Assembly (NCBI GenBank): GCA_008632985.1
Contig: QPGO01000127.1
Span: 186,001 to 242,161, forward strand
DNA from: Psammoneis japonica
Lineage: Eukaryota
Length of the DNA: 56,161 nucleotides
Direction: 5' to 3'
Part shown: piece by piece, positions 12,301 through 44,832 of the stretch
Layout of the letters: every line of letters starts with the position of its first letter
Position numbering within the stretch: the first letter of the stretch is position 1
Notes under the pieces: model-generated
The model's input: only the letters and a program-made list of their open reading frames with translations
Databases searched by the model: none
Told to the model about the DNA's origin: nothing
Program-made: the position numbers and the translations under genes

Positions 12301-12317
12301 CAGCATGGCACAGCATG
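9316..12317 (+). pseudogene. Glycosyltransferase family 8 (glycogenin/GUX-like) pseudogene, TE-interrupted and hypermutated
   Basis: Decayed GT8 motifs across frames: 'DCIHGAVALGASI', 'TCAKMMALGLAECKCVVFVDASALAVGPLDELLDC', 'HFNMGSML', 'SDQIFLNHVHP'. Consensus Tyr positions read Cys/His. The 5' part at 9316-9663 is inferred. Confidence 0.75.
9664..10975. mobile_element. Non-autonomous TIR DNA transposon, 27-bp perfect TIRs, 4-bp TSD AAGC
   Basis: GATGTGTTTTCATCCCAGGTGAGAAAC at 9664-9690 and its reverse complement at 10949-10975. AAGC at 9660-9663 and 10976-10979. Confidence 0.88.
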
Positions 12318-14167: not shown

Positions 14168-14258
14168 ATCATTTTGGAATGAGATCCCATGGGACACAGT
14201 CCGGTCAAAGGATCATGTTGTCTTTGACATTCGTTGGTCTCAATTTAAGCATCCCCAA
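14168..14258 (+). repeat. ~90-bp dispersed repeat, second copy at ~24831-24920
   Basis: Both copies contain CGGTCAAAGGATCATGTTG and end in CAATTTAA(G)CATCCCCAAG; probably a decayed TE terminus. Confidence 0.75.
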
Positions 14259-15139: not shown

Positions 15140-15570
15140 TGCAGTGTGCCTCGCTGCTGGACAACACGGCGAGACCGTGCATGAGCCTCTTGTGTGTGGC
15201 AACGTAGTGTTGTTAACACGCACCTGGGAAGCACGACCACAGGAGGGCGTGGCTCCAGGTCTCAGGCAATTCCAGATGGATGCTGAGAGAGCATCCGTGT
15301 GAAGCACACTAGCCCGTCGTCTGGCCCACGATGGCAGCGTGATTCCACACGATGACATCACTCGTGCATGGCGCGTGATGGCTTCATTCACACGATCCAC
15401 AATGCGAGTGCACGATCGATTCAATGCGATCCAAATGCGAACGAACAGGGATTTGGCAAGATTCCCCATTCGCACGATCCCATTTTCTCTGCTCTGAACT
15501 GGCCCACAATTTTCACAATGACAAAGTCGTAACACATCTTCTTTTCAGCGCCCAGTGCATGCACAGGGCA
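15140..15570 (+). repeat. 5' LTR of Gypsy-1
   Basis: Direct repeat of 22437-22867. Confidence 0.95.
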
Positions 15571-15664
15571 CAGCAATGTTGCTCCCGCACATTGTGCGAG
15601 GTGACGAAATCTGCAGAAACGAAACTGCGAAATGTTGGCAGGACCGACAAATCTTAAAACGACC

Positions 15665-18600
15665 ATGAAGAAGCGGATTGAGCCACCGACTCCATTTGCA
15701 CGGCCAGAGAAGAAAGAGCTGCAGCAAGGCGAGTGCCAGACGTTCAAGCTGCGTAACAACCCCACTGATCCGGACAGTCCAATGCACAAGATGGGCATTC
15801 CGCACCTTTCTGCGGCTGCATGCAAGACACTCCTGATCTTTCTGTGCAACGTGGATCGCGTGCACGAAGGACAAAACATCACGACCGGGCCAGCGAAATT
15901 TGCCCTTGTGCGTGACCTGCTGCAGGGCGATGCTCTGACGTCATTTGACAATGCCGCTGACAAGCAGGCATCCCAAACCAATGCTGCATGCGCAGCATGC
16001 GTCGCAAAGCTAAAGGAAAGTGTCTTCCCACATGGGGCGGCACCATTGCAGAAGCGTTGTCTGAGGCGCTTCATGTGCAAGCCCGCAGAGGTTTCTGCTC
16101 GTGACTGCGTCGCGAGGGCTGTTGAAATTAACGGCCACATCTCTCAGTTTCCACCCGTGACGGAGGATGGAGAAGCACCGGCACCATCACCTGATGACGA
16201 ACCATGCAACATGTTCAAGTGCGGTGTGCCGAACGCATGGCAGAAGTTCATGACGCTGCAGAATTTTGACCTGTTGGTGCGTGCTGTCGCCGAATTCATG
16301 CAGTTCTGTGAGCGCATCGAGCAGGTCGAGCTTGCCGAAGGTAACCAGGACCAACATGCTAAGGTTCCACACAAGCGGGGACGTAGAACGGACAATCCTG
16401 AGTCATTGATCACGACCCAACGGAACACCCAGAAGTCGTGCACGCTGCACGGGACTAACTGTGGACATCATGCGGAGGATTGCCGTCAGCTCAAGCACCA
16501 CACGGTGCCAATCTCAGTGACATGGCATCGCAGAAACATGTTCTTTGTGCCAGAGACACACATTTATGAACAATGTGTTTCGCTGGCAGCACTGCCGACA
16601 GATTTCTCTTTTTTCCACACTTCACCGTGACGAAAAAAATGGTGAGTCGCCGTTGCTTTCGACGATGTCGTTCGCCAGAAGTGATGAGTGCGAGTGTGAT
16701 GTTTCAACAAATTGTTGCCAATCAATGTCAGCACTGACGACATCACCAAAAACATCACACTCACACTCATCAGGAGACCGTTTTTGGACGATGCCACTGT
16801 TGGCACCGCTGCAAAGCAAAATGGCATGTGCAGCTGCTTTCGACGATGTCGTTTGCCAGAAGTGATGAGTGCGAGTGTGATGTTTTGACAAATTGTTGCC
16901 AATCAACGTCAATGCCAATGACATTGATAAAAACATCACACTCATGTTCATCAGGAGACCGTTTTGTGACGACCCTGCTGTTGGCACCGCTGCAAAGCAA
17001 AATGGCACGTGCAGCTGCGCTGTTGATGACACAGTTTGCCGAAAACAACACGTGTGAGGACCATGTTTTGATGCAACATTGGTGTTCAATGTCAATGCCA
17101 ACCACACATGCAAAAACATTGCTCTTGCACTCATCAGGAGACCGTTTTGTGACGACCCTGCTGTCTGCTGTTGTCGCCGTGACAAATGTTTCAGCATGTT
17201 CCCTCGGCGAGTCAAAAGTTGGGAATGCTCGTTGCTTGTTCACTTTGGCTCTTGTGGTCAGCTCTCATGCTGTCTTGTGGACACATGGGAATGGAAAAAT
17301 GGTGCTCACGAAGCGCACTGCCATTTGGTGGTGGCTTTGATGCGCCCAGACCAGTCCATCTCGTCGTTTTTCAGCATGTTCCCTCCACCGAGTCAACAGG
17401 CAAGAACACTCATTGCGCTTTCACTTTGGCCCTTCTAGTCATCTCTCATGTTGTCTTACAGACACATGTGAGTGCAAAAACAGTGTTCAGGGAATGCATT
17501 TGGAGGCCCTCTGATGGCTTGTCCCGTCTCTTCCGTTCGCCGTCGGCAGTTTTCGGAAGGTTCGCACTTCAGTGCGTCATTCCAGTTCCTCTCTTTGCAC
17601 CTGATTGGCTTGATGTTTGCCACAATGACATGCAAACAATCCACAAAAAACAACTGTGTTGCACTGGGTTTAGAAGTTCTTCAGACAGCAGGAGCGACTA
17701 GCCACCCCCTGACCTTGACGACCAAATGCGCCCAAAAATGCCAAGTTCCGGCCTCTCCTTGTGCCACCAAGGTCGCAAATTGCAATGAGTCAAACATGCA
17801 TCTCGTCATGACAACCCAAAACAATGTTGGATGCACTGTTGCAATGCGGCACTCTGCACCGTTCCCAGCCCCACAAGCGACCGGCAACTGCAGACCGAGG
17901 ACCAAAGCTCGAAACAAAAATGTTGTGTTCCAGCCTCTCATTGCACCACCAAGACCGCATGCTGCAATGACTCAAGCACACATCTCGTCATGACGACCCA
18001 AAGCAACACTGGATGCCCTGATGCAGTTTTCTGCATCATTTCCAGCCCCACAAACAACCGGCAACCAACAACCAGAGAAAACAAAAAACCTCCATGTCCA
18101 TCTAAATGCCAAAGAAACATGAAACCTTTGGAAGATTCCAACAAAACAACTGCACCACCAAACTCAGCGTGTTCGAATCACCTTGCACCAATGTCATTGA
18201 CGCCAAAATGTCGTCCCACTGATGGCCGATTTGTGAACAGAGACAAGTTGCGGAGAAAACAAAAAACTACCCTGTCCATCCAAATGCCAAAGAAACACAA
18301 AACCTTTGGAAGACACCAAAAAAAAACCAGCACAATCGTGCTCATTACACTCGAATTGCCTTGAATCAATGCTCTTGACCCTGTGACATTTTCCCAGTGA
18401 CGGTGCATTCATGAACGCCGTGCCGCCATGGTTGTTTTGTTCTCGCCTTTTTCACGAGTCCAGACAGTTTTTGAGGTTGTGGGCCCAAACCACACTGTGT
18501 CGCTCCGCGCGCAGAAAAAAAGCACCGTGACCACGTGAAACGTGTCAAGACTGGACGCTCCAGTGACGGAGGCAGCAAGCCCAATGCAAAACCTCGGAAT

Positions 18601-18741
18601 GAGGAAGATGTCAATGCTCTCATCGGATCGAAGGTCGAGGAGTTCTTTGCCAACGCTCAGAAAAAGCGCAAGGCACGCGAGGAGGAGCTCAATCACTTCC
18701 GCGACCTCAACTTGAGTGATTCCGAAGATTCGGGCGCCTGA
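15665..18741 (+). pseudogene. Gypsy-1 gag, split by the 16501-18529 insertion
   Basis: Gag-like ORF ending in a CxxHxxxxxHxxxxC knuckle. Removing the insert plus one TSD restores the frame (..CRQLKHHVKRVK..). Confidence 0.8.
16501..18529. mobile_element. Non-autonomous DNA transposon with CAC...GTG termini and 4-bp TSD ACCA (Chapaev/CMC-like), filled with ~180-bp internal repeats
   Basis: Starts CACGGTGC, ends GCACCGTG. ACCA at 16497-16500 and 18530-18533. Superfamily assignment is inferred from termini and TSD length only. Confidence 0.8.
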
Positions 18742-21700
18742 GAAGGGGGCCGACACGATGCAGGCAGTTTTGGCACATTGGATGAATGTGTGAATGAACA
18801 ACTGAATTACCATCGTACACGTGTTGCAGGCCAATCCCGCAAACGAGTTAAAAAGACTCATCTTGCTCCAATCTTGTTTACAGCTGTGAACACTAAACAT
18901 GGCAAGGGCAAGACTCAAACCATTAAGGCACTACTAGATAGTGGCGCCAGCAGTGCTCTACTCGACAGTCGACACTGTAAACGTCTGCGAAGCCATTCAA
19001 CGGCTGAGACAAACTGGACTACGGTAGCAGGCTCGTTCAGTACGTCTAACGACTGTACCGTTAAATTTTGGTTACCAGAATTATCCGAAACTGCAGAACT
19101 TAAATATACCGTCCACGTACACAACGGAAAGTTGGGCAAGTACGATATGATTATTGGACGTGACATTCTGGAGACATAAGGCATTGATATTGTCTTCTCT
19201 AAACAGATGATAGAGTGGCCATTAGTCAATGGAGAAGTACCAATGAGGCACGTAGATGCTACGGTGGAAACCTCCTTCTATCTTCAAGATCCAGAAGGCT
19301 TATCTTCGGAAACCGACCGGATTTCGCGTATTTTAGACGCTAAGTACGCGCCGGCCTGCCTCGAGGACATAACGCGAGGGACAATAGGACATTCTATAGT
19401 TCAACAAAACGACCTTTTGGCACTATTGAAACGCCATGAGTCCTTATTTGATGGGACATTAGGAGAATGGAAGGGAGAACCCTACCATATCCAACTCAAG
19501 GAGGGTGTAGAACCACACCACGCTCGTCCGTATAAAGTACCTCGTGCGTACGAAGCTACGCTACGCAAAGAAGTAGAACGCCCAGTGCGTGTCGGTGTTC
19601 TCAAACGCGTTAACCGATCCCAATGGGCAGCTCCATCATTTATCATGCCGAAGAAAGATTTAACGGCACGCTTTATTAATGATTTGAGAGAGCTGAATAA
19701 ACGGATCAAGCGATTGCCTCATCCGATTCCTCACATCCAAGATGTGCCACTTGAGCTCGAAGGCTTTGTGTGGGCTGCATCGCTGCATTTAAACATGGGC
19801 CATTGTCACACCCGATTGGATGCTGATGGCAAGAAGCTCTGCACGCTCATCTTCCCGTGGGGCAAGCATGAGATGCAGGCATTGCCCATGGGATTGTGCA
19901 ACTCGCCAGACATTTTCCAAGAACGCATGTCAGGCTCATTTGAGGATCTGTCGTTCGTTCGAACGCACTTGGATGACCTTCTCGTCGTGACGAAAGGCAC
20001 CTGTGAAGATCACCTCAACAAACTTGAAGAAGTTTTGTTGAGGGTCCAGAAAGCAGGACCAAAAGTCAACGCAACTAAATCTCACTTCTGTCAAACCCAG
20101 TTGGAGTGCTTGGGTTGTCTGGTCAACAGAGACGGAATGCGACCAACACCTGACAAAGTCGACGCCATTGAACGAATCGCGACCCCAACCAACAAACGCG
20201 GCCTGCGCTCATTTGTTGGCATGGTGAGCTGCTGCCGCGACACATGGATTAGACGTTCTGAAGTCTTGGCTCTGCCCAACACGACTCGCAAGCGAGACTG
20301 TCAAGTGGGAGTGGACGTCCGTTGAAGATGAGGCATTCGAAACCGTCAAACGGGTGATGTCGGATGATGTTTCATTGTCACATCCCAATTTTAACAAACC
20401 CTTTGAGATGCATGCCGATGCCTCTAAATGTCAATTGGGAGCAGTCACATCCCAAAATGACAAACCTGTCGCCTTTTACAGCAGAAAGCTCAACAGTGCG
20501 CAGTTAAATTGTGCAACAACGGAGAGAGAATCACTCGCCATTGTGGAGACGTTGAAAGAATTTCGAACGATTCTCCTTGGTCATCGTGTGATTGTGTGTG
20601 CTGATCATAAAAAATCTTGCGCACAAAGCACTCAACACCGAGCGCGTCATGCGCTGGCGGCTGACATGCGAAAAATGCGGCCCCGAATTACGTTGTGTTG
20701 AGGGCACCCACAACCCAGTCGCTGACGCTCTTGGTCGCCTTCGACCAGCACCCAGCTTGCCTTCCGAGGCCAATCCGGATGTAAAAGACACTCCATCGAG
20801 TCGTCCTTTGCATGAAGCTTTTAATGCAGACGCACAAGAGGAGATGTCTCTGCCCGTTGGCTTCAAGCGCATTCAAAAAGCACAACAAAAGGACAAGCGC
20901 CTGCTCTCACGAGCCAAGGACTCGTCCGACTGCTCCATTCGCGCATGTCGTGGGGGGAGGGTCATCACGACAGTTAATCTGTCATGAGGACAAAATCGCA
21001 GTGCCACAGTCATTGCAGGTTCCGCCCAACTGAATGGTGCCACGAGACACTGTGTCATCCAGGTGAGACACGTGCGGAAACATCTGTTGCCCAGCACTTC
21101 TGTTGGCCTGGTGTGAGGTCTACGGTGCATTCTACGTGCGTTAAGTGCGATCGATGCCAGAAGACAAAACGCCGAACGCAGCGTTGTGGGAAGCCACCAG
21201 AAAAGGTCGCAGAGACAATTCCATGGGAGACTCCATGCACAGACATGACAGGGCCACATGAAATTCAAAGACGCGGAAAGGACACTTTGCAATTGTGGTC
21301 AGTCACAATGATTGACCCAGCAACCGGGTGGTTCGAGATTAAAGAAGTGTCTGCGAAACGCGCAGACGTCGCAGCAAACGTCGTGGAACAAACGTGGCCA
21401 CGCAGATGTCCGTGGCCAACCCAGGTGGTTTGTGACCGTGGGACAGAATTTATGGCAGAATTTAGCCAGATGATTAAAAATGACTGTGGGATTTTGAAGA
21501 AACCCACAAGCAAACGGAATCCACAGGCGAATGCCATGGTGGAACGTGTGCACCAGACACTTGGTGACATGGTGCGTTCCTTTTCAGTGCAGGACATGGA
21601 GCTGGACGAAGATGACCCATGGAGTGGCATCCTCTCCGCAGCAGCCTTCGCTGTCAGAGCTGCGGCACATGCGACCACGCGTGCAAGTCCCATGCAATTG

Positions 21701-22397
21701 GTCTTCGGACGCAATGCGGTTTTGTCTGTTGCCCATCGTGCCAAGTGGAAGCACACAGAAACTAGAAAGCAGAAGCTCATCCACTTGAACAACAAGCGTG
21801 AAAATCAGAAACGCAAGGAGCATCAATGTGCCGCAGGGCAATTGGCACTTGTCAAACAGGAACAATCCTCTAAGTGCGGTTCTGACAGCTGTGCAGGACC
21901 CGCCAGAGTTGTCCGTGCACATGACAACGGCACGTTGCGTGTCCAGAACGGAGCGCTGACAGACGGGTTCCAGTCCTAGGTGGGACTCCGTGTGACATTG
22001 GGCCCGTAGAATTCTACGTGCGAGCTCTGTAGTACGAGAATTTAATTAATGGATGTGTTTATCTTCACTGTCAAATAAACGGCCAAGTTTGTGGTACAAA
22101 TATGCCTCTTGCCACTCGACGTTTTTGCAAATGCGCCTGCCCTACGCGATTCTTAAGACATTGTAGAATCGCGCTGTAACAAAAAATGTCAAAAGTTGTT
22201 GGACGGATCGCTCAATAAGTGTACCGTAAAATGACACAAAATATCGAAAAAATCACGTAGAAATCTACGTGCGCGACATACAACGTGATTCAAAAAACTA
22301 TCGATGTCACAGTTCAGTAGTACGAGGTCCCACCTAGACCTGGAACGCGTCGACAGACACGTGCAATCTACGGCAGATTGCACCCTGTCGCCAGTGA
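18742..22397 (+). pseudogene. Gypsy-1 pol (protease, RT, RNase H, integrase) with stop, frameshifts and Tyr->Cys/His substitutions
   Basis: LLDSGA; LPMGLCNSPDIFQ; THLDD (from YLDD); DASKCQLGAV; HETLCHPG..C..C; DRGTEF; PQANAMVERVH. Confidence 0.92.
21962..22351. mobile_element. MITE (390 bp) inserted in Gypsy-1 integrase, TSD GACA
   Basis: TIR GACGGGTTCCAGTCCTAGGTGGGAC versus the reverse complement of GTCCCACCTAGACCTGGAACGCGTC. GACA at 21958-21961 and 22352-22355. Removal restores GALTDTCNLRQIAP. Confidence 0.9.
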
Positions 22398-22436
22398 GAC
22401 ATCCTGTCACTTAACGGCCCTGATCATGGGGGAGTG

Positions 22437-22867
22437 TGCAGCATGCCTCGCCACTGGACAACACGGCGAGACCGTGCACAAGCCTCTTGTGCGTGGCAAC
22501 GCAGTGTTGTTAACACGCACCTGGGAAGCACGACCACAGGAGGGCGTGGCTCTGGGTCTCAGGCAATTCCAGAAGGATGCCAAGAGAGCATCCGTGTGAA
22601 GCACACTGGCCCATCGTCTGGCCCACGATGGCAGCGTGATTCCACACGATGACATCACTCGTGCATGGCGCGTGATGGCTTCATTCGCACGATCCACAAT
22701 GCGAACGCACGATCGATTTAATGCGATCCAAATGCAAACGAATAGGGATTTGGCAAGATTCCCCATTCACACGATCCCATTTTCTCTACTCTAAACTAGC
22801 TCACAATTTTCACAACGACAAAGTCGCAACACATCTTCTTTTCAGCGCCTGGCACATGCATGGGGCA
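22437..22867 (+). repeat. 3' LTR of Gypsy-1
   Basis: Direct repeat of 15140-15570, followed by TSD TTGT. Confidence 0.95.
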
Positions 22868-24029
22868 TTGTGTGACACCCAGATGTCAGTTTGAAGCAAC
22901 CCAGAAACATTGAAAGGAGAGATGCTTTTGACTTCTGACATGCAGTTCTTGACAAAATGGGACATTCTTTGAAGAGATCAGAGCTGCCGTTGACATCCTG
23001 TCATGTGTGTTTTGTTCTTGCACTTTGGAAAAAATCATTTGGTTCACATGATGATTGTTGTTTGGCATCAAGAGGTGCCTGTTGTCACACCAGTCATGCA
23101 GTGATGCCAAGGCAACCCACAGCCACCATTGCACTGCCAAGGCAAGTGTGCTGAGCAGCACAGAAGACCCCACAGGACTCCTTTTTAGAAACATTGACTT
23201 GCTGGCTCAGCACTCACTCTGCAGAGTCATTGACACTGTGCTCAGTGCTCACAAATTTCAGATCACTGCCTGCACCAAGCCAACTCAATGCTGGCACTGT
23301 GAGTGGCAGAGGAGGTGGCAGAAGTGGCTGACATGGTCATGGCAGAGGCAACAAGAGTCCCAGGTCCTCTGACAAGAACAAGGAGACCAATGACAAGACA
23401 TGCTTTTAGCTTGAGATGAAGTTTCTCACATTTCATCACTGAGCAGCAACACCTGCAATGCAACATGCAACAAAGATGTCAAGGAAAAGGTCATCCAACA
23501 CATGCAGAAAGAATGCATTCAAGGTGTGCATTTGACAAAGTCTCTGCAAGATGTGAAATGCAAGGATTTTAAGAGGCCAAGATGCCAGCCTTGTGAGCAT
23601 CTGCAGCAACTGCATGAAAAGAAGACAGTGTGGAGTGCCAGAACAAGCTGCAACAGAAAGAATGCAAGAGGGGACAAGGAGCTGAAGCAAGCAAATGCTG
23701 TGAGGAGAAGATTGAGAAGTTGAAAGAGAACAAGACAATCATGCTTGCCAAGATTTTGGATGACTGTGCTGCACCAAACAATTCAAACAAAGGGTGCCAG
23801 CAAGCAGACCCCAGTTTCCTTGCTGTTGGATTCTGCCAATGAAACTTGTCCAACTCCTGACATTTGACTCAATGGGTTGACATCCATTCCACCTGCACAC
23901 TTGCCAAGGCCCTTTGATGCGAGGCAACAAGACAACAAATTGCTGCATGATTGCATCTCAAGATTCAAGAATCAGCAAGATGCCACCAAACAATGACTGG
24001 GAGACAAGATGCTGGGTCTTCCATTGTGC

Positions 24030-26265
24030 AAAAGTGCAGTGCAAAGCCCTGCTGGTGTGTGGTCAATGCTCGCAGGCATGGAGCAGACCGCTCATGTCAC
24101 TTTGGCTTGAAGGTTCCCTGCTGCTGCAGGGCAAAGCACTTGGCTCTTGGTTGTGCCCCTGCAACATGTGAGACAGTGGGTGAAATTGAACAGACCAAAT
24201 GACCCACAAAGCACTTGCCCTCACATCTTTGTCTTTTGCCAAAGACAGAAAGAAGGCTTTGCCATCTCCTGATCATGAATTTGTGCCATCGCTTAGCTGC
24301 AGCCAATTTGTGAGATGGCAACAAAAGCAAGCTGGCAAGAGATTTGACAGCTGTTTTTTTTTTGGCAAGAAAAGTGTGGCAGCTGAACTCTGGTTGATTT
24401 CTGTTCTTTGGTTGTTCCAACAATGGAGACAAAGTTGGAGTCAAGCCAATCCAAGCTCTTGTTGTTCCACAGAGGTTGACCAAGCTGCTCAGTGGCAGGC
24501 TCAGTTGGGCTGGCTTGCCAGAAAAGATGAGGAGGGGCAAAAAGAACACAGGCTTGGCAATTCTCAATTTCTGGCTCAGCTGGATGGTCACTCATTCAGC
24601 TGGAACAAGCGAGTCTTTCTCTGGGATGGAATCTGCAACTGATTTCTGGACCTTGGCTCCAGTGCAACAAACTCCATTGCTCCCCTTTTGTTGCTCTGGG
24701 CAGACAAATTCATTTGTTCTTGTTGCCTGCCAGTTGCCACTGACTGAGAGAGTTGACAGGCAGTGGAATTTGCATTCTTGGAGCCTCTCTAATGCTCTGG
24801 AGCAGGGACAGAGCAGGATGTCCAGCACAATCATTTTTGAACAAAACCCCATGGAACATGGTTCGGTCAAAGGATCATGTTGACTTTGATGTTTGTTGGT
24901 CACAATTTAACATCCCCAAGTTTTTTGTGTCACATTGCCACCAATTGCTGCATGCATGCATTCACTCATTTGCAGCTCAGTTTCACCAGTCACATCATTT
25001 CATCCCCCACACCTGCCTGCTTTGAACAACATGACAAAACAAATGGCATTGCCTTCTTCATGGAAAACATCAACTTGTCGAGGTTGTGCTTTGCACCTTT
25101 AAAATCTTCACATTGAAGGAAAACCAACCAACCTTTCACTGTTCCCACACCTTGAAAAGTTCCTTGTTGTCCTTCAAATGAATCCATGCTGCCCTTGATG
25201 TGAAGCAGTTGGCAGGGCAAGTGACCACATCACACACAGCTGGAGCCAACAAATCATGCATTGAGCATTGTGCCCTCAAAAATGCCGTGATCATCAATGA
25301 AAGATGTGGCAAGAAATGCACACTGTTTTGCTCTGGTCATGGCTTCCAAACACATGCACTGTGGAGGTGCTGGGCACCAAGTTTTTGGCACCATCATTCC
25401 TCCAAAGGATGCTCCAGCAGTCTTGCTCTGTCTTGCAAGCACTGTTTCCTGTTGCACTCTTTCACACAGCTGTCAAAAGCCCCTCTTTTAATTCTTGCTG
25501 TTTAGTGATGCCCAAGTTTTCTTGCTTGGAGCAGGCCGGCTCTAACTCTCACCTCACAACATTGTGCACAAAAAAACATGCAATTGGCCTGTCATTTGTT
25601 TGGGTGGTGGTTGCCATCTGTGATGGATGATGGTGGCCACAAAGAGATGACAATTGGTGGCTTCCATGTGGAAAAGTGCAGCAAAGCATCACTGTGTGAT
25701 CAATGCTCACAGGCGTGAAGCAGACCATCTGCGGCACTTTGGCTTGTCAGCTCCCTGCTGCTGCAGGAGCAAAGTGCACCAGGCTGGTTGTGCACCCAGC
25801 ATGACATTTGAAGATGGCAAGTGAAAGCAAATGCAGGCCAAAGAACTCACAAAGTGCTCACACTTGCATTTCATGTTTCAGCTGCAACCAATTTGTGAGA
25901 TGGCAAACAAAAGCCAGCTGGCAAGAGATTTGACGGCTGGCTTTCCTTGTTTGGCAAAAGTGGCAGCTGGCCGAACTGGTTGGTTTCTCTTCTTTGGTTG
26001 CTTTGTCCAACAATTTAGCCAAAGTTAGAGTCAACAAGCCAAGCTGTTGTTGTTTCTGACAGAGGCCATCCAAGCTGCTTGGTGGCTCAGCTGGGCTGGC
26101 AGCACAGAAGAAGGGGAGCAAACACAACACAGGCTTGCATTTTCTCAATCTCTCCTTGGCCCCAGTGCATCAAACTCCCATTGCTCTCCTTTTGTTGCTC
26201 TGGGTGAACAAATTCATTTGTTCTTGCTGACTGTCAATTGCCGCTGAGAGAGTTGACAGGCAGCA
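24030..26265 (+). repeat. Diverged direct duplication (~24030-24770 versus ~25670-26265) of decayed sequence
   Basis: Collinear shared blocks, e.g. CCAATTTGTGAGATGGCAA..GCTGGCAAGAGATTTGAC and CTGAGAGAGTTGACAGGCAG. Confidence 0.8.
25021..25085 (-). pseudogene. Short decayed fragment of the 3' end of an M8 protease gene
   Basis: Aligns to ~32676-32735: VFYKEGDAIYFV becomes VFHEEGNAICFV. Confidence 0.7.
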
Positions 26266-27919
26266 GGTTTTTGCCAGCACACAATCTGCACAGTCTGTGT
26301 GGAGCACAAATTTGTAAATTTTTCTGATGCTTTCACATGTCATCAAATTTTCTCTGCAGAGTGGTTCGCCAGCTGTGTGTTGCTTTGCTTGCGAGTCTCT
26401 AAGAAAGCAGCATTGCAAGTGTGTGCACAAGGTTTTGTGCTGAGACTGGGTTTGCAGCAAGCACAAGGACACTGAGCAGAAGGAGGAGCCACAGCTCCAC
26501 ATCATCATTTGTTGATTGTCTCACTGACCAGAAATCTGACAATGACAAGACAGCCGCAACAGTTGCTTGAGAATGACTGAACAAATGAATGTGAGATTGA
26601 CTTTTCCAATCTGAGTTTTTGAACAACAATGAGACAATTTTAACAGCTGTGCTCATGTTCACACCCATCTCTCACTGCTGCCTTGTTGAGTTGTTGGCTG
26701 CCCTCAAGAACACAGACAATGGGGGGGGCATGTGCACTGCCAACTTGCAGCAGCTTTCATGGTGGGAAATGTTCTGCAGAAAGAAGTTGACACCTGTCAT
26801 TTTCCCAAACAAGTGCGAGTCTCACAACTTGGCTTGGCCCTGGCTTGGGTGCTGATTGCTTTTTTGCATGCCACAGCAGACATGGCCACAGCACCAGCTC
26901 AAGCTTTGGTGGTGTCAGCAGCACCAGCAGTGGATGTTCTTGACAATGCACCACTGCACATTTGTGGCATTGCTGATGTTGGCACAAGGGCTTCTTTGGC
27001 ATTTCACAATGAACATGTTGTCTTGGGAAACATTGCAGGTCATGGAGAGAAACTCAGACATCCAGGAAATGGTGAACAGAGTGGGGCAGTGGGGCTTCAT
27101 GAAGCATCTGCATTTTTTGTTGGATGCAATGCATGTTGGTCTTGAGACAGGAAATGTTCCTTCATTTGTTGTGGCCTGGAATGTGTGAGCATGGAAAAAA
27201 GAGCAGCCTGTTCAGCAGCTCTGTCATGTCATGCAGCATGTTGTGGTGAGATTGTGCACACACTGCAGAACAGCTGCAGCTGCAGCAGGCAGTGCTCTTG
27301 GCATGTTGTGCAGTGCTGCTGGCAAGCACTCTCACTCTTGACCCAACATGTCTTGTGTGCCAACATTGTTTGCCATGGAGGTGGTTGGGTCTGATTCAGC
27401 CTTGACTTTGAGGACAGAAGAAGTGCAATCCTTGGCAAGGTGAGATGCGCGACATTCATGTTTTGCTTGCAATGCTTGTGTGTGTGATGCACCAGGCTTG
27501 TTTGCCACAGAGCAGAGCTGGCACTTCAGGCATCTGATGGATGGGATCTTGAACATTGAGCCCTTTTTCTTTGGCTTTGTTGCCCCTGGCAGAGGAGTTC
27601 TGAGTGCTCACAGTGCTGCCACTGAGGGAGCATGGTGCATGGTGAGCTTTATTCTCATGGAGAGTCTTTGCTTCTTTGGGTGGAGCCATGATGGTTTGCT
27701 GCTCTTTTGCAGGAGAAATCCACTTTTTTCAGATTCCATGAGGATCCTGTGCCATGGTTCTCAGCTTTGAACATGTGTTTGCAGATGCCAACATCTGACC
27801 CATCTTTTCACAGTGAATCTTGCACTTGTTCTTGATGTCTGTGATGAAATCTGAACTGGCAAACATGAGGTGAGCCTCTTGAACACAGTGAGGATTCTTC
27901 AGCAGTGAGATGGAATTTT

Positions 27920-28435
27920 TGTTTGATGAGGATGGGAACCATCCCAGTCAATTTGGAGACCAAGGCATGGAGTGTTGAAACCTTGTGCGTGTGCCCAGAG
28001 GAACTCAGTCAGGACATGCAAAACAACAGGCAGTGGCCTCTCAAGCTGCTGGGGATGAGCCAGACTTTGCAAAAGGCAACAATCCTGATGCCCGTGCACA
28101 GCCTTTGTCATGGATGCTGCTGCAGCTTTCCCTTTTTCATCTCATGGGTGGAGCAACACCACCATTTTCAGAATGGATCAAACATTGGAGAGAACATCCA
28201 AACTCCTGCAATGATGTCGTGAACAAGTTTTAGCCAAGGAAGGCACTTTGGGTGTCAGCAAGTGTCCCAACAGATTCCAGGTGTCAGGGCCTTGGGTTTG
28301 CAGTGCCTCAACTGTGTTCATCAAAATCTGCATGAGAACCAAGGAAATGCTCTGTGAAAGATGAGTCTGGCAGCAGTGTGTCTGGCAAAATTCCTTCTCA
28401 CGCAGTTTTCCTCACATGCCATGATTCGCTTCATT
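27920..28435 (+). pseudogene. Decayed partial copy of the MsrA-like gene (3' half plus 3' flank)
   Basis: Collinear with ~6397-6955; TpA and most CpG replaced by TpG/CpA. Confidence 0.93.
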
Positions 28436-28954
28436 TCACCCGCCAAAGTCTGCCAAAAGCAGACATTTGCTCGATGTTGCTGTCACGCATTCTCCATGAT
28501 TTGTTGCAAAATTGTCACAATCTCTTGATGGACTCAACATTGGCAAAAATTGTGGACACTCTTGAGTGAAAAGATCTGTCCAATGAAGGCGCTTTGTGTG
28601 CCAGTGAGAGTCCATGCGGATTGCTGGACTCGCCACCTGTTGGCATTGTGCTGCAGTCCTTGCAGTGCTTTGACATCATGCAAAACTCAATGAAACCATC
28701 CATGGCACAGAGAAGGTAAACAGAAGGATCACTGCTGTGTGTGTGTGTGCTGTGGAAACAAGATCTGTTCATGCATGCTTCCAATCAATCTTCCATCCTA
28801 ATGTGAGTCATTTGACATGCAACAAGCATGAGTCTGCAAAGTCCATAAAAATGCCAATCAATTTTTCACCCTCAAATCAATGGGCAAGCTGCAACACGCA
28901 TCAGAGTGGCACCACATGACAAGTCGTTTGCACGACTGGCGCCTGCTTCATGAT

Positions 28955-29746
28955 TCATGACATCCACCACAACATCAGAGGAACAGCAAGGAGGAGCATC
29001 ATGGCAAGCAGCGCCGTCGCATGCAAGGAGCAAGACATGCCAGAAGAAGTCAAGGGCATCTTCTCTGTTGGCAAGGGCGTCTCCACTGGCAAGGGTGTCT
29101 CTGCTGGCTTGAACACAATTTCATCATCGCAGGCAACAACAGAGTGATCCGCAAGCTTGAGAATCAAGCCCATGTTGTCGCACTCAGCCGAGACCAAGTC
29201 ACCACCCGGAGCATTCTTGCAGTTTGGCAAAGTCAGTGGATCAGACATGAGGCCACAGAGTTCACAGCCAAGACACTCTGTGCCTTTGAGCGCTGCCTCG
29301 CATTCGGTCACAAAAGTCCCAAGACCACAGAAGAGCTTCATGCAATGGGACTCTCCATCAAGGACATCAGTTCCCGCAGTGTAAAATGTGCAAATCAACT
29401 CGGATTCGGGGCAGCCAGCAAAGAAGTCATGCTCCACAATGTGCTGCATTGTTCTGCACACTTCGCCGCAGCATGCTTCTCCTGTTGCATTGCAAGAAAT
29501 GCTGTGTCTGCCGCTGCAGCTGCAGCTGAAAGGACAGCCACACATGTCTTGACCTTCTGATTCGTGTGTGTCTTCGAGCTCCTCACAGGTTGAAGAATCC
29601 AGGCAGCGACCATCTTTCACCATGTCTTGGAAAATTGGAACGAGCTTCATTCCCACACAATGCATCATCGCAGGTTCGACAACACATGACACGTCGGTGA
29701 TGGCACCGAGAATCATCACCAGGGATGGAGAGGACACTTTCACCAT
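28955..29746 (-). CDS. Secreted Cys-rich, probably GPI-anchored surface protein; hypermutated and probably non-functional
   Basis: Open 263-aa frame with signal-like N-terminus, Cys-rich core, ETPLP repeats, then SSG and a hydrophobic C-terminus. Only one Tyr; sequence nearly TpA-free. Confidence 0.65.
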   Translation of the reverse strand: MVKVSSPSLVMILGAITDVSCVVEPAMMHCVGMKLVPIFQDMVKDGRCLDSSTCEELEDTHESEGQDMCGCPFSCSCSGRHSISCNATGEACCGEVCRTMQHIVEHDFFAGCPESELICTFYTAGTDVLDGESHCMKLFCGLGTFVTECEAALKGTECLGCELCGLMSDPLTLPNCKNAPGGDLVSAECDNMGLILKLADHSVVACDDEIVFKPAETPLPVETPLPTEKMPLTSSGMSCSLHATALLAMMLLLAVPLMLWWMS

Positions 29747-30220
29747 GTTGACAGTGGGATGCTTTTTCTTGCGTTTTAGTTCTTTGTGGGATTGACAATT
29801 CTGTTGCATCGTTTGCTCTCTCGTACAGCTACGCAGAAATGAATACGATGTACGAGACATCCTTGACAACATGGTTCGCATCGCAAATTGTCATCATTCA
29901 TGTTCATCATGACCAACTTTCGCGCTTCCAGCTTTGAGCTTTGTGCTGTCCATCCATCGCGCGCACAAATAATGTACTGTAGGTTGGGCCCTCTATTATT
30001 CTAATTTTCTAATGAATGGATATAACAAATTTATACATTTATATGATCATTATAAAGATATTTCACCAACGACAATCCCGTTGCTCACAATTTTGAAGTT
30101 TTGTCAGTTGTTAGTTGTTTGTTACGATGAGGTTGTTCATTCGCATCGCGATCCCTTCATCTTGATGAAGCCTTCATCAATCCGTTGCTCATACTTTTTA
30201 TGCTCTAGCTATTGTTGACG

Positions 30221-34445: not shown

Positions 34446-35099
34446 GAACTTTGTCCGGGTGAGAAACCCGAGGCACTGCGACTTTGCTGCTGTGAGAATG
34501 TGACGTGGTATCTTACACGGGTTTGACTCTGATGAATCTGTGTACGTGCAAAGAATTCCTTACACGTTGATTCTCGCTGTATGCTCGCAACACCACACGT
34601 TTTTCAACCAACCAAAGAAGGGTCTTTTTCCGCCTCGTTTCCTCTTGATTGCAGGCGCTGGTTGTCATTAACGTCCTTGCGTATTTCGCACGAGTATGCT
34701 GTTGTTTTTGTTGGCTGTTGCTTTTTTTGTGTCTCTCGGCATTTTTCAGAATTTTCTCCCGCGCGCACTTTCACCATCACTGACAAAACACAATTTTATG
34801 AAAAGCATACAGGTATTTATAATATATTTTTTCAATCCGATTCGTGTTTTCATTCAGTTTTAAAAGTCACTAAGGTTTTTATGTTAAAAACGAATTTGTT
34901 AAAGGTGCGGTATCTTTCTTAAGTAGATTCAACCGTTGAAAGTATCCGTTCAGGTCAGTATCGAAATAATTGAGAATAAGAATTTCAGGGACACATATGT
35001 TCATGGTTTTCATCGACAATTTTTCTTGAGACTCCTCTTCATTGTCCCTGCACCAAGAAGCAAAAGTCCATTGTTATAGTGCCACCATGCCCCCCCCCT

Positions 35100-36890
35100 G
35101 AAAAGCTTGCAACATTTAGCTTGCACCCCCAGCATGCTGTTTAAAAAGTGCAGCAGGAGGAATGGATCCAGCCAGAGTGGTGGCACACAGCCCAAGATGT
35201 CGCCCCTGTCTCAGGCTTGAGAAAAAACAGGCAGAGGGGCACGACTGAGCACCATGATTCTCCCAGCATGTGCAACAGCTCTTTTGTGTCATCAACTCAT
35301 TGAGCACCCTGTCAGCCTGTCCCCGGGAGTGAGCCTGTCCACAATGTGATGGATGCGTTCCAGCCCTGGGGTGGGAGCTCGCAGCGCACATTTCCTCCAC
35401 GTGTGATCTTCGAAAAAATTGTTCTGGACTCGCTGTTTTGCAAAATCCCAGATGTTTTGCCAGACAAAGTTGTCGGAACATGAAGAATGAGCCAGGCACG
35501 CTCTTCTTCAATGTCCAAAGAATGCACCTGGCCAAGCAAAAAATGATGCACTGTGCTTCAATCATGGACGACTTTGTGCTTTCGCAAAATTGCCTCATTT
35601 TCTGTTGGCAATCATTGAAGCATTCACAATCTTGCAATTTTGCTGTGGAGCTTGCACACAGAATTCTGTGAGCCCAATGTCACACGGATTCCCGCACACA
35701 TGTCTGGAGTGCATCAATGGACAGACTGCGGGTGGATGTGATGACCAGACCATTTGGACAGACAGACAGATCTCTCTGAGATCTTCCTCTCACTTCTTTC
35801 CCACTGGCACTCATGTTGTCCCAGTCCCAGTGCTTGGGGAGTCTGTCACATTGCTGTCCTCATTGCCCTTCGGTGCACTGCCACTGACATTTTTTTTGTG
35901 GTGGCCTCCCTGCTGCACACTCCCCCTCGTTTGTTGTGCACTGGGCTTTGGCACTTGTCGTGTCCATTGGTCTCTCTCTGCATCATCCCCATTCTTTGGA
36001 TTGATCTGCATTGTCTTCTGCTTTTAGACATTGCAGATCAGGGGAGGGTGTCAGTCCATCTGCCACACTGCAGACACAGATTGCACATGCGGATGATGAC
36101 CAGACCATTTGGACAGACGAGAGCAGATCTCTCTGAGATGCCCAACATGATGCTTGCAAGCCCCATGTCAAGCCCGCCATTGGCTGCGCCGCTGGTGTCT
36201 TTCCTTCTTTTGCATCTCCAACTTGTGTTTTGAAGCCACAGTGAGATTCAATGAACCACCCTGAGCTGACCCCCACCCAGCCAAAACAGCCAGGCTGTGC
36301 TGCACACACTGTGAGAGAGGAGTTGCCAAGCATGAGGTGGTGGATTTGAGTGTTGGCTTTGCCATTGCCAACCAGCTCTGCCGTTCATCACATGGGTGGA
36401 GCAGGTGTGACAGATGCTCCTCCAGGGTGCCCGTCAGCTGTGCTTTGGTCTCATGACTCACAAGTCCAGCAACCTGTTGAAAGAGCCAGTGCACAGTGTT
36501 TTCCAAATCCCCTCCTCCCCAAAACACACATGAGAAATTCTGCAAGGCAAAGAGCTTCTGATGATGGCATCCTGGACACAGTGGCTGTGTCTGAGACCAA
36601 GGGAGCAGAGCAGTTGAGGAATCCAAACAGGAAGAAACTGCCAGATGCATCAAAGCAGGTGCTGTTTGTGTGTGAGTCATTGGGCATTTCTGCCATGCAA
36701 TCACCACAAAAAGTCCACAGAGGGAAGGAGGAAGCCATGGGAGGAGAAAAAGAGAAGTGTGCACAGGCCGCTCTCCACCTGGTCCGAGTCCATGTCATCT
36801 GAGGCGTGCAGCAAAATGTGCATCGGACACTTTCTGAGGATGCTGAGAGATGCCTTCTCCTTCCCTTTCTTCACACTGATCTGTCTCGAT
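35100..36890. other. TpA/CpG-depleted decayed block, probably TE-derived
   Basis: Near absence of TpA with many Cys/His-rich spurious ORFs; no recognisable domain. Confidence 0.6.
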
Positions 36891-38127: not shown

Positions 38128-38429
38128 TATGAACCTCTTCGATGCGACTGCTTCTTTTACTCGTTGATCTTTACTCCCCATGTTCTTTCTTGATTTGGAG
38201 GAACGGCAAAACACATAATTTCGCTATTGTTTGGTTGAATACGGTGACAGCTGCAGGAGAGCGTTTTCGTTCATGTTTTTCCGACTGGCGGTTGATTCGT
38301 GATTCGGGATTGCGGACCTTAAATGTGTGTCTGCGACAAAATTGCAATAAATAAGCAAACTATGTTTCCTAATGTCAATGTCATACTAGGTGTAGTACCC
38401 ACATTATGTCCTTTCTTTTTCAAGACGAA

Positions 38430-44806: not shown

Positions 44807-44832
44807 GGTTGTGTGGATATGGAATAGAAGTG

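What the first reader, a model, noticed from the sequence alone, without database searches (positions are those of the whole stretch)
27920..28435. Decayed copy of the MsrA-like gene has lost every TpA while the source gene is untouched
In ~6397-6870 I count 20 TpA; none survives in the aligned copy (GATAAG->GATGAG, GGTACGG->GGCATGG, AGTATCG->AGTGTTG, TCTACATAAG->TCTGCATGAG, stop TAG->CAG). The functional gene polarises the direction. Fungal RIP hits both duplicates; here only the copy inside the repeat domain is altered, so targeting appears chromatin- or location-based rather than pairing-based.
Basis: partly seen in the sequence, partly recalled or inferred. Interest (0 to 1): 0.8.

Follow-up and report, generated by a model that had tools for sequence, protein, structure and literature searches.

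The report
TpA-erasing hypermutation in diatom repeat domains
A dead copy of a diatom gene lies in a stretch of DNA where almost every TA step has been rewritten to TG or CA, the mark of a targeted A:T-to-G:C mutation process so far reported only in one unrelated alga.

Summary
The copy at 27919-28444 aligns to 6396-6966, the last 128 codons plus 3' UTR of the MsrA-like gene. All 22 aligned TpA are gone: 12 to TG, 9 to CA, 1 to TT. Sixty outgroup proteins show the gene is ancestral and untouched.

CpG also decayed (17 of 23 to TG/CA). TpA loss is also not special to this copy: seven sharp-edged islands, 47% of the window, are almost TA-free.

An old gypsy element gives independent proof. Its two LTRs show 8 TG-versus-CA double differences, and its conserved Tyr codons became Cys or His. 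CpG is kept there, so TpA loss is separate from CpG decay and faster.

In 43 copies of another gypsy family from metagenome contigs, TpA retention runs from 7% to 95% and does not track ordinary divergence. Conversions are independent between copies, strand-symmetric, and favour 5'-TAY-3'. TpA survivors in the window show the same bias.

This matches the TpA hypermutation seen live in Bigelowiella natans (2026 preprint) and extends it to a diatom. The enzyme is inferred only; a TadA/ADAT-like DNA adenine deaminase is the best guess.

The parts
5916..6779 (+). Intact MsrA-like (PMSR) gene, the source of the copy. TA o/e 0.62, CG o/e 0.92.
   Evidence: Pfam PF01625 E 1.9e-9. 745 homologues, the named ones all diatoms, best 74-76% identity. 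Composition and conserved Tyr kept at 10 of 12 columns.
6396..6966 (+). Source segment that was copied: the last 128 codons plus about 190 bp of 3' UTR. 28 TpA, 26 CpG.
27919..28444 (+). Pseudogene copy. 1 TpA and 6 CpG, an in-frame TGA, indels, and stop TAG->CAG.
22868..29770 (.). TA-free, CpG-free domain holding the pseudogene. TA o/e 0.02-0.18, CG o/e 0.02-0.64, TG+CA o/e 1.6-1.9. Depth is like single-copy DNA.
   Evidence: Contigs of run X1 identical over 22838-23950 and 26406-27073; depth 46-88 against 35-64 for 29.7-35 kb.
10500..15139 (.). Left half of the same old TA-free, CpG-poor domain, split from the right half by the gypsy insertion.
   Evidence: The 4-bp target-site duplication TTGT on both sides of the element was read from the print.
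15140..22867 (+). Old, hypermutated Ty3/gypsy LTR retrotransposon. LTRs at 15140-15570 and 22437-22867 are 92% identical. TA o/e is about 0.1 while CpG is near normal. The family has very high copy number.
   Evidence: LTRs. (RT, RNase H, integrase; YxDD read as HLDD). (11 of 11 conserved-Tyr columns not Y). (depth 1e4-1e5).
18808..19698 (+). TA-normal stretch of native pol (protease to N-terminal RT), in frame with its TA-depleted flanks. Edges are sharp.
   Evidence: The joint 18788->19761 in other copies comes.
21962..22351 (.). MITE-like insert, TA-normal, inside the mutated gypsy. 30-nt terminal inverted repeats; depth about 130,000.
   Evidence: inverted repeat, 83% complementary. (joints 21959->22356, depth)..
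4750..5700 (.). Small TA-poor, CpG-poor island directly upstream of the intact MsrA-like gene.
35000..36880 (.). TA-depleted island
38420..40940 (.). TA-depleted island
51400..54600 (.). TA-depleted island holding a 1.37-kb tandem duplication (52070-53434 / 53441-54805).
44832..49739 (+). Intact Ty3/gypsy element, used here as the unmutated control. LTRs are 99% identical with 23 TpA each; the pol ORF is 1193 aa; CpG o/e is 1.3-1.5.

Best explanation
What it is: 27919-28444 is a dead, 5'-truncated copy of the MsrA-like gene. It lies in an old heterochromatin-like island of a diatom nuclear genome.

How the TpA were lost: a DNA-level, locus-selective hypermutation rewrites TpA to TpG or CpA. 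This is A:T->G:C at the double-stranded trinucleotide TAY/RTA. Either strand is hit independently, site by site, until almost only YTAR sites survive.

Timing: the process acts in episodes on particular loci or copies, not as a clock. It is much faster than CpG decay, which is a second, independent process in the same islands and is presumably 5mC deamination.

Relation to known work: the signature is the one seen arising de novo in Bigelowiella natans mutation-accumulation lines.

Enzyme, inferred and not shown: a nuclear DNA adenine deaminase of the TadA/ADAT kind. The natural target of that family is U(-1)A(0)C(+1)G(+2).

Consequence: inactivation of retrotransposons (Tyr codons become Cys or His; YxDD becomes HxDD) and of any sequence lying in the targeted chromatin.
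For: SHOWN IN THE WINDOW
- Gene versus copy: 21 of 22 aligned TpA became TG or CA and 0 were kept. Outgroups polarise 8 of 10 changes toward the gene and none toward the copy.
- Extent: 110 TpA in 26,417 bp of islands against 1,260 in 29,744 bp elsewhere. TG is about equal to CA in all 7 islands.
- LTR pair of the old gypsy: 31 of 34 differences lie in shared YR steps. These are 8 TG-versus-CA doubles, 8 TA-versus-TG/CA and 7 CG-versus-TG/CA. 25 CpG are kept in both LTRs but only 1 TpA.
- My hand estimate: about 80% of TpA, about 11% of CpG and about 0.5% of other positions changed per LTR.
- Old gypsy RT against 120 outgroup RTs: 11 of 11 conserved-Tyr columns in the depleted half are C, H, W or M. 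In the TA-normal stretch 3 of 5 stay Y.
- The intact gypsy has 23 TpA per LTR and 3 LTR differences.

SHOWN IN A SECOND DATA SET
- 43 copies of one gypsy family from metagenome contigs keep from 5 of 74 to 228 of 240 TpA. Correlation with background divergence is r=0.21 and with CpG loss r=-0.26. Outcomes total TG 825 and CA 765. Runs tests show no strand-coordinated runs.
- Outcomes agree in 939 of 1616 pairs of converted sites (58%), so conversions are independent between copies.

CONTEXT
- The target A is converted at TAC 0.39 and TAT 0.34, against TAA 0.14 and TAG 0.14. RTAY is converted at 0.77-0.83 and YTAR at 0.17-0.33. TACG is nominally the highest at 0.51.
- Window survivors show the same bias: YTAR is 64% of island TpA against 16% elsewhere, and RTAY is 4% against 29% (chi-square p about 1e-31).

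LITERATURE
- B. natans de novo TpA->TpG/CpA hypermutation (10.64898/2026.01.13.699255; abstract, Results and Discussion read).
- TadA recognises U33 A34 C35 G36 (PMC10586758, passages).
Against: - No enzyme was seen, because no genome is held for this window.
- The sequence signature cannot tell an A-directed event at T-A-Y from a T-directed event at R-T-A on the other strand.
- The only natural ADAT2 shown to deaminate DNA adenine preferred GAA, not TA (PMC10354150, passages).
- Differences among TAY-N contexts are small, and sites are counted repeatedly across copies.
- No real-time mutation data exist for this organism.
- The TA-normal pol stretch and the MITE-like insert inside the mutated gypsy show that targeting is neither uniform in space nor continuous in time.
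- The very high copy number of partly TA-depleted gypsy sequence leaves open that some depletion was inherited through amplification of an already mutated copy.
- Run X1, which confirms the sequence, may be the sample the window was assembled from, so it is not independent.
Confidence: 0.8

Rival explanations
1. Same phenomenon, different chemistry. The thymine of R-T-A is the target. An oxidised or otherwise modified thymine, for example 5-hydroxymethyl- or 5-formyl-uracil made by a TET/JBP-type dioxygenase, mispairs with G and gives T->C on either strand.
For: The signature is strand-symmetric, and TAY on one strand is RTA on the other, so the data fit equally well. From memory, not from any call: base J and dinoflagellate 5hmU sit preferentially at T followed by A, and 5-formyluracil is mutagenic toward T->C.
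Against: Modified thymine is not known to me in diatoms. No enzyme or modification data are available here. TACG being nominally the top context matches the TadA target UACG, weakly favouring the adenine route.
Confidence: 0.2
2. Pairing- or homology-dependent process of the RIP type, with a new specificity. Duplicated DNA is recognised as such and mutated.
For: Most mutated sequence is or was repetitive (gypsy family, tandem repeats, a duplicated gene fragment).
Against: The source gene is untouched. The pseudogene domain now has single-copy depth. The intact gypsy with 99%-identical LTRs is unmutated. Copies of one family with equal background divergence range from 7% to 95% TpA kept. The very high-copy MITE-like insert is TA-normal.
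Confidence: 0.1
3. RNA-level A-to-I hyper-editing (ADAR-like) of transcripts, followed by reverse transcription and insertion of the edited copy.
For: The 5' U preference matches ADAR as stated in the preprint. The copy carries 3' UTR and is 5'-truncated. Retroelements are affected.
Against: Outcomes are symmetric (12 TG and 9 CA in the copy; 825 and 765 in the family), whereas a cDNA copy inherits edits of one strand only. The two LTRs of one inserted element diverged from each other after insertion. The 3' neighbour preferred here is a pyrimidine; ADAR's preference for 3' G is recalled, not from a call. In B. natans the mutations arise in situ in single-copy DNA.
Confidence: 0.03
4. Reverse polarity: the copy keeps the ancestral TG/CA states and the gene gained TpA (classical RIP-like C->T at CpA/TpG).
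For: None beyond the formal symmetry of a two-sequence comparison.
Against: At 8 of 10 informative codons the outgroups carry the gene's residue and 0 of 60 carry the copy's. The gene is intact and the copy has a stop and frameshifts.
Confidence: 0.01
5. Artefact or native composition. Either systematic base-calling or assembly error at modified bases, or foreign DNA that never had TpA, or selection against TpA.
For: Modified bases can cause transition-type consensus errors in long-read assemblies (recalled, not from a call).
Against: Contigs of run X1 agree with the window with 0 differences over 1113 and 668 bp of the TA-free domain, though possibly from the same sample. Independent metagenome assemblies show the same signature. 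The gene-derived copy and the Tyr->Cys/His changes in pol prove conversion from TA-bearing ancestors. Dead copies are not under selection.
Confidence: 0.02

Closest known systems
TpA-specific hypermutation of integrated viral DNA in Bigelowiella natans (Mettrop et al., bioRxiv 10.64898/2026.01.13.699255; abstract, Results and Discussion read)
   Same: Changes are exclusively TpA->TpG or CpA, on both strands. Regions are kb-scale with the rest of the genome normal. TpA-depleted, CpA+TpG-enriched clusters are enriched in RT and transposase domains. Activity is heterogeneous: only some lines there, only some copies here.
   Different: The host here is a diatom (stramenopile), not a chlorarachniophyte. 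Depletion is near total (TA o/e 0.02-0.1, against 0.45 for their NCLDV region). Targets are LTR retrotransposons, anonymous old repeats and a host-gene pseudogene, and no viral genes were recognised. CpG decay co-occurs but is separable. A 3'-pyrimidine (TAY) preference is seen here. A search of their main text found no 'trinucleotide', 'flanking', 'CpG' or 'diatom'. Their figures and supplements were not visible to me. No real-time mutation data exist here.
Repeat-induced point mutation (RIP) of fungi
   Same: Transition hypermutation that riddles repeated or selfish DNA and kills transposons. It is dinucleotide-specific and leaves a diagnostic dinucleotide skew.
   Different: RIP is C->T, mainly at CpA, and therefore creates TpA and lowers GC. 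Here TpA is destroyed and GC stays about 47-53%. RIP hits both duplicates, whereas here the source gene and many family members are spared. Diatom DNMT4 is related to RID but its function is unknown (PMC9998398, passages).
5-methylcytosine deamination (CpG decay) in methylated diatom transposons
   Same: CpG->TpG/CpA loss in the same islands (CG o/e 0.02-0.3; 17 of 23 in the copy). Diatom TEs are CpG-methylated through DNMT5a (PMC9998398, abstract and passages).
   Different: It explains only the CpG half. TpA loss occurs without it (old gypsy: CG o/e 0.65-1.0 against TA about 0.1) and is uncorrelated with it (r=-0.26).
TadA/ADAT tRNA adenosine deaminases and their DNA-editing derivatives
   Same: The natural target is U(-1)A(0)C(+1)G(+2) (PMC10586758, passages). 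The context found here is T-A-Y, with TACG nominally highest.
   Different: Wild-type TadA does not deaminate DNA, and amphioxus ADAT2 preferred GAA on DNA (PMC10354150, passages). No such gene could be examined for this organism.

Membership tests
B. natans-type TpA hypermutation | Substitutions essentially confined to TpA, giving TpG or CpA | tested here: met
   21 of 22 aligned TpA in the copy. In the LTR pair, 24 of 34 differing bases are TA-related: 8 doubles and 8 singles. In the 43-copy family, TG 825 and CA 765.
B. natans-type TpA hypermutation | Both strands hit (A->G and T->C on the reference strand) | tested here: met
   12 TG and 9 CA. TG is about equal to CA in all 7 islands. No strand runs.
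B. natans-type TpA hypermutation | Confined to kb-scale regions while the rest of the genome has a normal spectrum | tested here: met
   Seven islands whose edges resolve within one 250-bp bin. Neighbouring genes have TA o/e 0.4-0.8.
B. natans-type TpA hypermutation | Targets DNA of foreign or selfish origin | tested here: inconclusive
   One gypsy element is clearly targeted. A host-gene fragment is also hit, and most island sequence has no recognisable origin: 121 of 124 ORFs have no Pfam hit. An intact gypsy and a MITE-like insert are spared.
B. natans-type TpA hypermutation | Arises de novo at about 1000-fold elevated rate in real time | not testable with these tools
   Only historical inference is possible. 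LTR pair: about 80% of TpA against about 0.5% of other positions changed per LTR (hand estimate).
B. natans-type TpA hypermutation | Not constitutive: active in some lineages or copies only | tested here: met
   TpA kept ranges from 7% to 95% among 43 copies at similar background divergence (r=0.21).
Fungal RIP | C->T at CpA (or CpG), creating TpA excess | tested here: not met
   The direction is opposite and TpA is erased.
Fungal RIP | All duplicated copies mutated | tested here: not met
   The source gene is untouched. Family copies are spared.
Fungal RIP | Depends on a RID-type methyltransferase homologue and acts premeiotically | not testable with these tools
   No genome is held.
5mC-driven CpG decay | CpG->TpG/CpA with CpG o/e well below 1 in silenced repeats | tested here: met
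   CG o/e 0.02-0.3 in 11-15 kb and 23-29 kb. 17 of 23 aligned CpG in the copy.
5mC-driven CpG decay | Cytosine methylation present on the region | not testable with these tools
   No methylation data.
ADAR-type RNA hyper-editing fixed by retro-copying | A->G on the transcribed strand only | tested here: not met
   Outcomes are symmetric. LTRs diverged after insertion.
TadA/ADAT-type deaminase substrate | Target A preceded by U/T and followed by C(G) | tested here: inconclusive
   TAC 0.39 and TAT 0.34 against TAR 0.14. TACG is 0.51, the highest of 16 contexts, but margins are small and sites are pseudo-replicated. The same data fit a T-directed R-T-A model.
TadA/ADAT-type deaminase substrate | A candidate nuclear deaminase gene in the genome | not testable with these tools
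   No genome is held.

The most novel reading that the evidence does not exclude
Diatoms, and at least one further unidentified microbial eukaryote, run an 'adenine RIP'. This would be a locus-targeted natural DNA adenine deaminase of TadA/ADAT descent that reads T-A-Y, erases essentially every TpA from silenced DNA independently of cytosine methylation, and thereby kills retrotransposons. Together with Bigelowiella, that would make it an ancient SAR-wide genome-defence system and the first natural double-strand-symmetric A->G DNA editor.
Probability: 0.3. Interest if true: 0.9.

Novelty: new member of a known kind. Interest (0 to 1): 0.72.

Why it matters
TpA-specific A:T->G:C hypermutation has been in print for less than a year. 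It is known from one organism and has no known enzyme.

Finding the same signature, taken to near completion, in a diatom genome and in a second retrotransposon family from environmental contigs has several consequences.
- It suggests a widespread genome-defence or heterochromatin-linked mutator in an ecologically dominant algal group, not a curiosity of one chlorarachniophyte.
- The data here add constraints that any mechanism must meet: a 3'-pyrimidine preference (TAY/RTA), strand symmetry without processive runs, independence between copies, independence from CpG decay, and a rate well above CpG deamination.
- A natural DNA adenine editor would be of clear interest for base-editing technology.
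- On the practical side, TA-free DNA has no TAA or TAG stops and so yields many long spurious ORFs. In this window 124 stop-to-stop ORFs of 90 aa or more fall in 26 kb, and 121 have no Pfam hit. This is a trap for gene prediction in diatom genomes.

Tried and rejected
- Whole genome: none is held for the window. No genome-wide map, no other gene/pseudogene pairs and no deaminase search were possible.
- Earlier notes of this scan: nothing for this genome or these words. The 8 notes listed concern phages or organelles and do not bear on this.
- Pfam on 124 stop-to-stop ORFs of the islands: only the 3 gypsy pol pieces hit, so the origin of most island DNA stays unknown.
- RNA: no RNA holder was listed for the stretch, so nothing can be said on expression.
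- Location versus element test in the metagenome family: flanks outside the element are short and give mixed values, for example L024 flank TA o/e 0.46 against element 0.26, L015 0.59 against 0.37, and L012 flank 0.31 against element 0.67. Inconclusive.
- A second, more diverged MsrA-like fragment that I thought I saw by eye at about 28480-28660 was not recovered by tblastn at E<=1. Dropped.
- The other 37 of 80 metagenome loci (59-79% protein identity to the query, under 79% nucleotide identity to L004) were left out of the copy analysis. As whole loci they have TA o/e 0.24-0.83.
- Reference positions 3452-4151 of L004, an internal tandem duplication, were excluded from the counts.
- L014 duplicates L011 and L005 is 98% identical to L004. 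They were not removed, so 43 is a slight over-count of independent copies.
- Literature searches for a diatom report and for TA-dinucleotide depletion with adenine deamination returned nothing relevant among the listed titles and abstracts.
Full report
1. THE OBSERVATION

A local alignment pairs window 6396-6966 with 27919-28444. It has 516 aligned columns, of which 431 are identical (83.5%).

The first segment is the last 128 codons plus about 190 bp of 3' UTR of an intact ORF, 5916-6779. That ORF carries a PMSR (MsrA) domain (Pfam E 1.9e-9). It has 745 homologues at E<=1e-5, and the named ones are all diatoms: Seminavis, Skeletonema, Thalassiosira, Cyclotella, Cylindrotheca. The best identity is 74-76%. 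I therefore take the window to be diatom nuclear DNA. This is an inference from homologue names.

The copy interval 27920-28435 has a single TpA, at 28231, inside a small insertion.

Over the whole alignment the gene segment has 28 TpA and the copy 1. Of the 22 TpA with both bases aligned, 12 became TG, 9 became CA, 1 became TT and none survived. Under uniform 16.5% divergence, the chance that all 22 change is about 4e-12.

Of 23 aligned CpG, 10 became CA, 7 became TG and 4 were kept.

Of the 85 substitutions, 66 are transitions. 22 sit in gene TpA, 20 in gene CpG and 43 elsewhere.

2. POLARITY

I aligned the gene product with 60 homologues (P0002-P0061) and read the copy in the gene's frame.
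- Of 10 non-synonymous changes at gene TpA, 8 have the gene's residue in 36-60 of 60 outgroups and the copy's residue in 0 of 60. These are Y179, Y193, K207, L208, T229, Y240, Y257 and L280.
- Two are ambiguous (K164, 25 against 17; I282, 19 against 19). None favours the copy.
- No CpG-type non-synonymous change has the copy's residue in more than 1 of 60 outgroups, and 12 of 14 have the gene's residue as the outgroup majority.
- The copy has R180->TGA, stop TAG->CAG and frameshifts.
- The gene keeps Tyr at 10 of 12 conserved-Tyr columns; the other two are N and F, not C or H. Its CDS TA o/e is 0.62 and CG o/e 0.92.

So the copy is derived and the gene is untouched.

3. THE COPY IS NOT SPECIAL: THE WHOLE NEIGHBOURHOOD IS TA-FREE

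In 1-kb bins, normal sequence has TA o/e 0.4-0.8, CG o/e 0.6-1.5 and TG+CA o/e 1.0-1.4. Blocks at about 10.5-18.8, 19.8-22, 22.4-29.8, 35-36.9, 38.4-40.9 and 51.4-54.6 kb, plus a small one at 4.75-5.7 kb, have TA o/e 0.02-0.2 and TG+CA o/e 1.4-1.93.

Edges resolve within one 250-bp bin. Together the islands cover 26,417 of 56,161 bp (47%). They hold 110 TpA, against 1,260 in the other 29,744 bp.

GC content stays about 47-53%, because TA->TG/CA and CG->TG/CA offset each other.

Contigs of a public DNA run of the same coded organism match the window with 0 differences over 22838-23950 and 26406-27073. They give the 23-29.7 kb domain a depth of 46-88, like the single-copy genes at 29.7-35 kb (35-64). 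The run may be the assembly's own sample, so it is not independent.

4. INDEPENDENT PROOF FROM A RETROTRANSPOSON IN THE WINDOW

Self-BLAST finds a 92%-identical LTR pair at 15140-15570 and 22437-22867. It is flanked by a 4-bp duplication TTGT, read from the print. Between the LTRs lie RT, RNase H and integrase.

LTRs are identical at insertion, so their differences are post-insertion events. Of 34 differences, 33 are transitions, and 31 lie in shared YR steps:
- 8 are double differences, TG in one LTR and CA in the other;
- 8 are TA against TG or CA;
- 7 are CG against TG or CA.

Twenty-five CpG are kept in both LTRs, but only one TpA is.

A TG-versus-CA double needs one change in each LTR from a TA or CG ancestor. 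With CpG this well kept, the ancestor must have been TA.

My hand estimate from these counts is about 25 ancestral TpA, of which about 80% were converted per LTR. That compares with about 11% of CpG and about 0.5% of other positions. TpA loss is therefore one to two orders of magnitude faster than background and roughly ten-fold faster than CpG decay. These numbers rest on small counts.

At the protein level I compared the RT with 120 outgroup RTs (P0122-P0241). All 11 conserved-Tyr columns in the TA-depleted half are C (5), H (4), W or M. In the TA-normal stretch, 3 of 5 are still Y. The catalytic YxDD reads HLDD.

The flanks on both sides of this element are older: they are TA-free and also CpG-poor. 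The order of events was therefore old island, then gypsy insertion, then TpA erasure of the gypsy with CpG still largely present.

A second, intact gypsy (44832-49739) lies between ordinary genes. It has 23 TpA per 296-bp LTR, 3 LTR differences and CpG o/e 1.3-1.5. It has not been hit.

5. PATCHINESS

Inside the mutated gypsy two stretches are TA-normal.
- 21962-22351 has 30-nt terminal inverted repeats. Other copies of the family lack it (joints 21959->22356), and its depth is about 130,000. It is a very abundant MITE-like element that inserted after the erasure.
- 18808-19698 is native pol, in frame with its depleted flanks. A contig joint 18788->19761 shows that other copies differ just there. 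It could have escaped, or it could have been restored by recombination with an unmutated copy. I cannot tell which.

The family's summed depth of 1e4-1e5 also leaves open that some depletion was inherited through amplification of an already mutated copy.

6. A SECOND, LARGER DATA SET

Six of the 120 outgroup RT proteins (P0163, P0191, P0193, P0145, P0236, P0203) show the same Tyr->Cys/His signature, with 0-2% Tyr.

An alignment of these with normal relatives (A2) was used to scan metagenome contigs. It returned 80 loci.

Forty-three of these loci are copies of one gypsy family, at 79% or more nucleotide identity to L004. They are only 62-67% identical to the window's element. The organism is unknown.

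I projected the copies on L004, excluding L004's internal duplication at 3452-4151, and used per-column majority states for polarity.
- The fraction of 261 family TpA sites kept runs from 5 of 74 (L028) to 228 of 240 (L022).
- It is uncorrelated with background divergence (r=0.21; both extremes have about 4.5%) and with CpG loss (r=-0.26).
- Outcomes are balanced (TG 825, CA 765).
- Runs tests show no strand-coordinated runs and little clustering of converted sites (|z| below 2 in most copies).

Between nine heavily converted copies, the outcome at sites converted in both agrees in 939 of 1616 comparisons (58%). That is close to the 50% expected for independent events.

The process therefore strikes individual copies, saturates them, and is not a steady clock.

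7. SEQUENCE CONTEXT

In ten partly converted copies I treated each strand's A as a target.
- Conversion is 0.39 for T-A-C and 0.34 for T-A-T, against 0.14 for T-A-A and 0.14 for T-A-G.
- The base 5' of the T matters little.
- As tetranucleotides, RTAY is converted at 0.77-0.83 and YTAR at 0.17-0.33.
- TACG is nominally the best of the 16 T-A-N-N contexts (56 of 109, 0.51). Margins are small and sites are counted in several copies.

The window shows the same rule independently. Among TpA surviving in the islands, 70 of 110 (64%) are YTAR and 4 (4%) are RTAY. Elsewhere the figures are 16% and 29% (chi-square p about 1e-31).

The same signature in two unrelated element families argues for one mechanism.

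8. WHAT IS KNOWN

A full-text search led to Mettrop et al., bioRxiv 10.64898/2026.01.13.699255. I read the abstract, Results and Discussion.
- In Bigelowiella natans mutation-accumulation lines, 231 of 302 nuclear point mutations fell in an integrated NCLDV and a virophage region.
- Almost all were A->G or T->C, and all were at TpA.
- The rate there was about 1000 times the rest of the genome, and only some lines were affected.
- They also report 124 TpA-depleted, CpA+TpG-enriched clusters and propose an ADAT2-like DNA adenine deaminase.

Their main text does not contain 'diatom', 'CpG', 'trinucleotide' or 'flanking'. Their figures and supplements were not visible to me, so a motif beyond TpA may be shown there.

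Searches for a diatom report found nothing relevant among listed titles and abstracts: diatom + TpA + transposable elements gave 7 papers, diatom + RIP + retrotransposon gave 7 papers of which 5 were listed, and TA dinucleotide + depleted + TE + adenine deamination was also searched.

Diatom TEs are CpG-methylated via DNMT5a, and many diatoms carry a RID-related DNMT4 of unknown function (PMC9998398, abstract and passages). That fits the CpG half of the pattern but not the TpA half.

9. MECHANISM

Shown:
- DNA-level, post-insertion change;
- TpA-specific, with a TAY/RTA preference;
- strand-symmetric and non-processive;
- selective for particular copies or loci;
- independent of CpG decay.

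Inferred: the enzyme.

E. coli and S. aureus TadA recognise U33 A34 C35 G36 (PMC10586758, passages). That matches T-A-Y, with TACG on top, and supports the preprint's deaminase idea. However, the one natural ADAT2 shown to deaminate DNA adenine preferred GAA (PMC10354150, passages).

A thymine-directed route at R-T-A fits the sequence data equally well. An example would be oxidised thymine mispairing with G. The precedents for T modification at TpA are recalled by me, not from a call.

RNA editing followed by retro-copying is rejected by the strand symmetry and by the post-insertion divergence of LTR mates. Reverse polarity is rejected by the outgroups. An artefact is rejected by the independent assemblies.

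10. TARGETING

- the spared source gene;
- the single-copy depth of the pseudogene's domain;
- the contrast between the gypsy that landed in an old island and the one that landed between genes;
- the spread of 7-95% among equally diverged family members.

It is qualified by the TA-normal MITE-like insert and pol stretch inside a mutated element. These show that the action is episodic.

Flanks of the metagenome copies are too short to test it.

11. VERDICT

The phenomenon belongs to the kind just described in Bigelowiella. Here it is extended to a diatom, taken to near completion, and given new constraints on the mechanism. I rate it a new member of a known kind, with interest 0.72.

Noticed in passing
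window:52070-54805: Tandem duplication of 1.37 kb (97-98% identical) inside a TA-depleted island. All 12 CpG-type and all 3 TpA-type differences have the first unit in the TG/CA state and the second in the CG/TA state. The first unit has therefore decayed further than its neighbour.
   Followed up: partly
window: all TA-depleted islands (26,417 bp): Without TpA there are no TAA or TAG stops, so all six frames are full of long ORFs. There are 124 stop-to-stop ORFs of 90 aa or more, often overlapping, and 121 have no Pfam hit. Gene finders are likely to call false proteins here, and such Tyr-less 'proteins' are present in public protein collections.
   Followed up: partly
window:21962-22351: A 390-bp MITE-like element with 30-nt terminal inverted repeats. 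Its summed contig depth is about 130,000, roughly ten times that of the gypsy it sits in. It is TA-normal and CpG-rich.
   Followed up: partly
window:44832-49739: An apparently intact Ty3/gypsy element: 1193-aa gag-pol ORF, LTRs 99% identical, unusually high CpG (o/e 1.3-1.5) and normal TpA. Possibly active and unmethylated.
   Followed up: no
window:24018-24763 and 25661-26263; 14167-14260 and 24829-24921: Decayed internal repeats (73-86% identical) inside the old TA-free domain. One pair links its two halves on either side of the gypsy insertion.
   Followed up: no
protein P0122: The best RT homologue is labelled by its source as a Flagellimonas marinaquae (bacterial) protein, although it is a eukaryotic gypsy-type RT-RNase H. 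This is probably eukaryotic contamination of a bacterial assembly.
   Followed up: no
L004:2758-3451 and 3456-4149: The reference copy of the metagenome gypsy family carries an internal 694-bp tandem duplication (90% identical), which had to be masked for the counts.
   Followed up: yes
window:4750-5700: A TA-poor, CpG-poor island of about 0.9 kb ends only about 200 bp upstream of the start codon of the intact MsrA-like gene. The mutated state can therefore abut a functional gene without spreading into it.
   Followed up: partly
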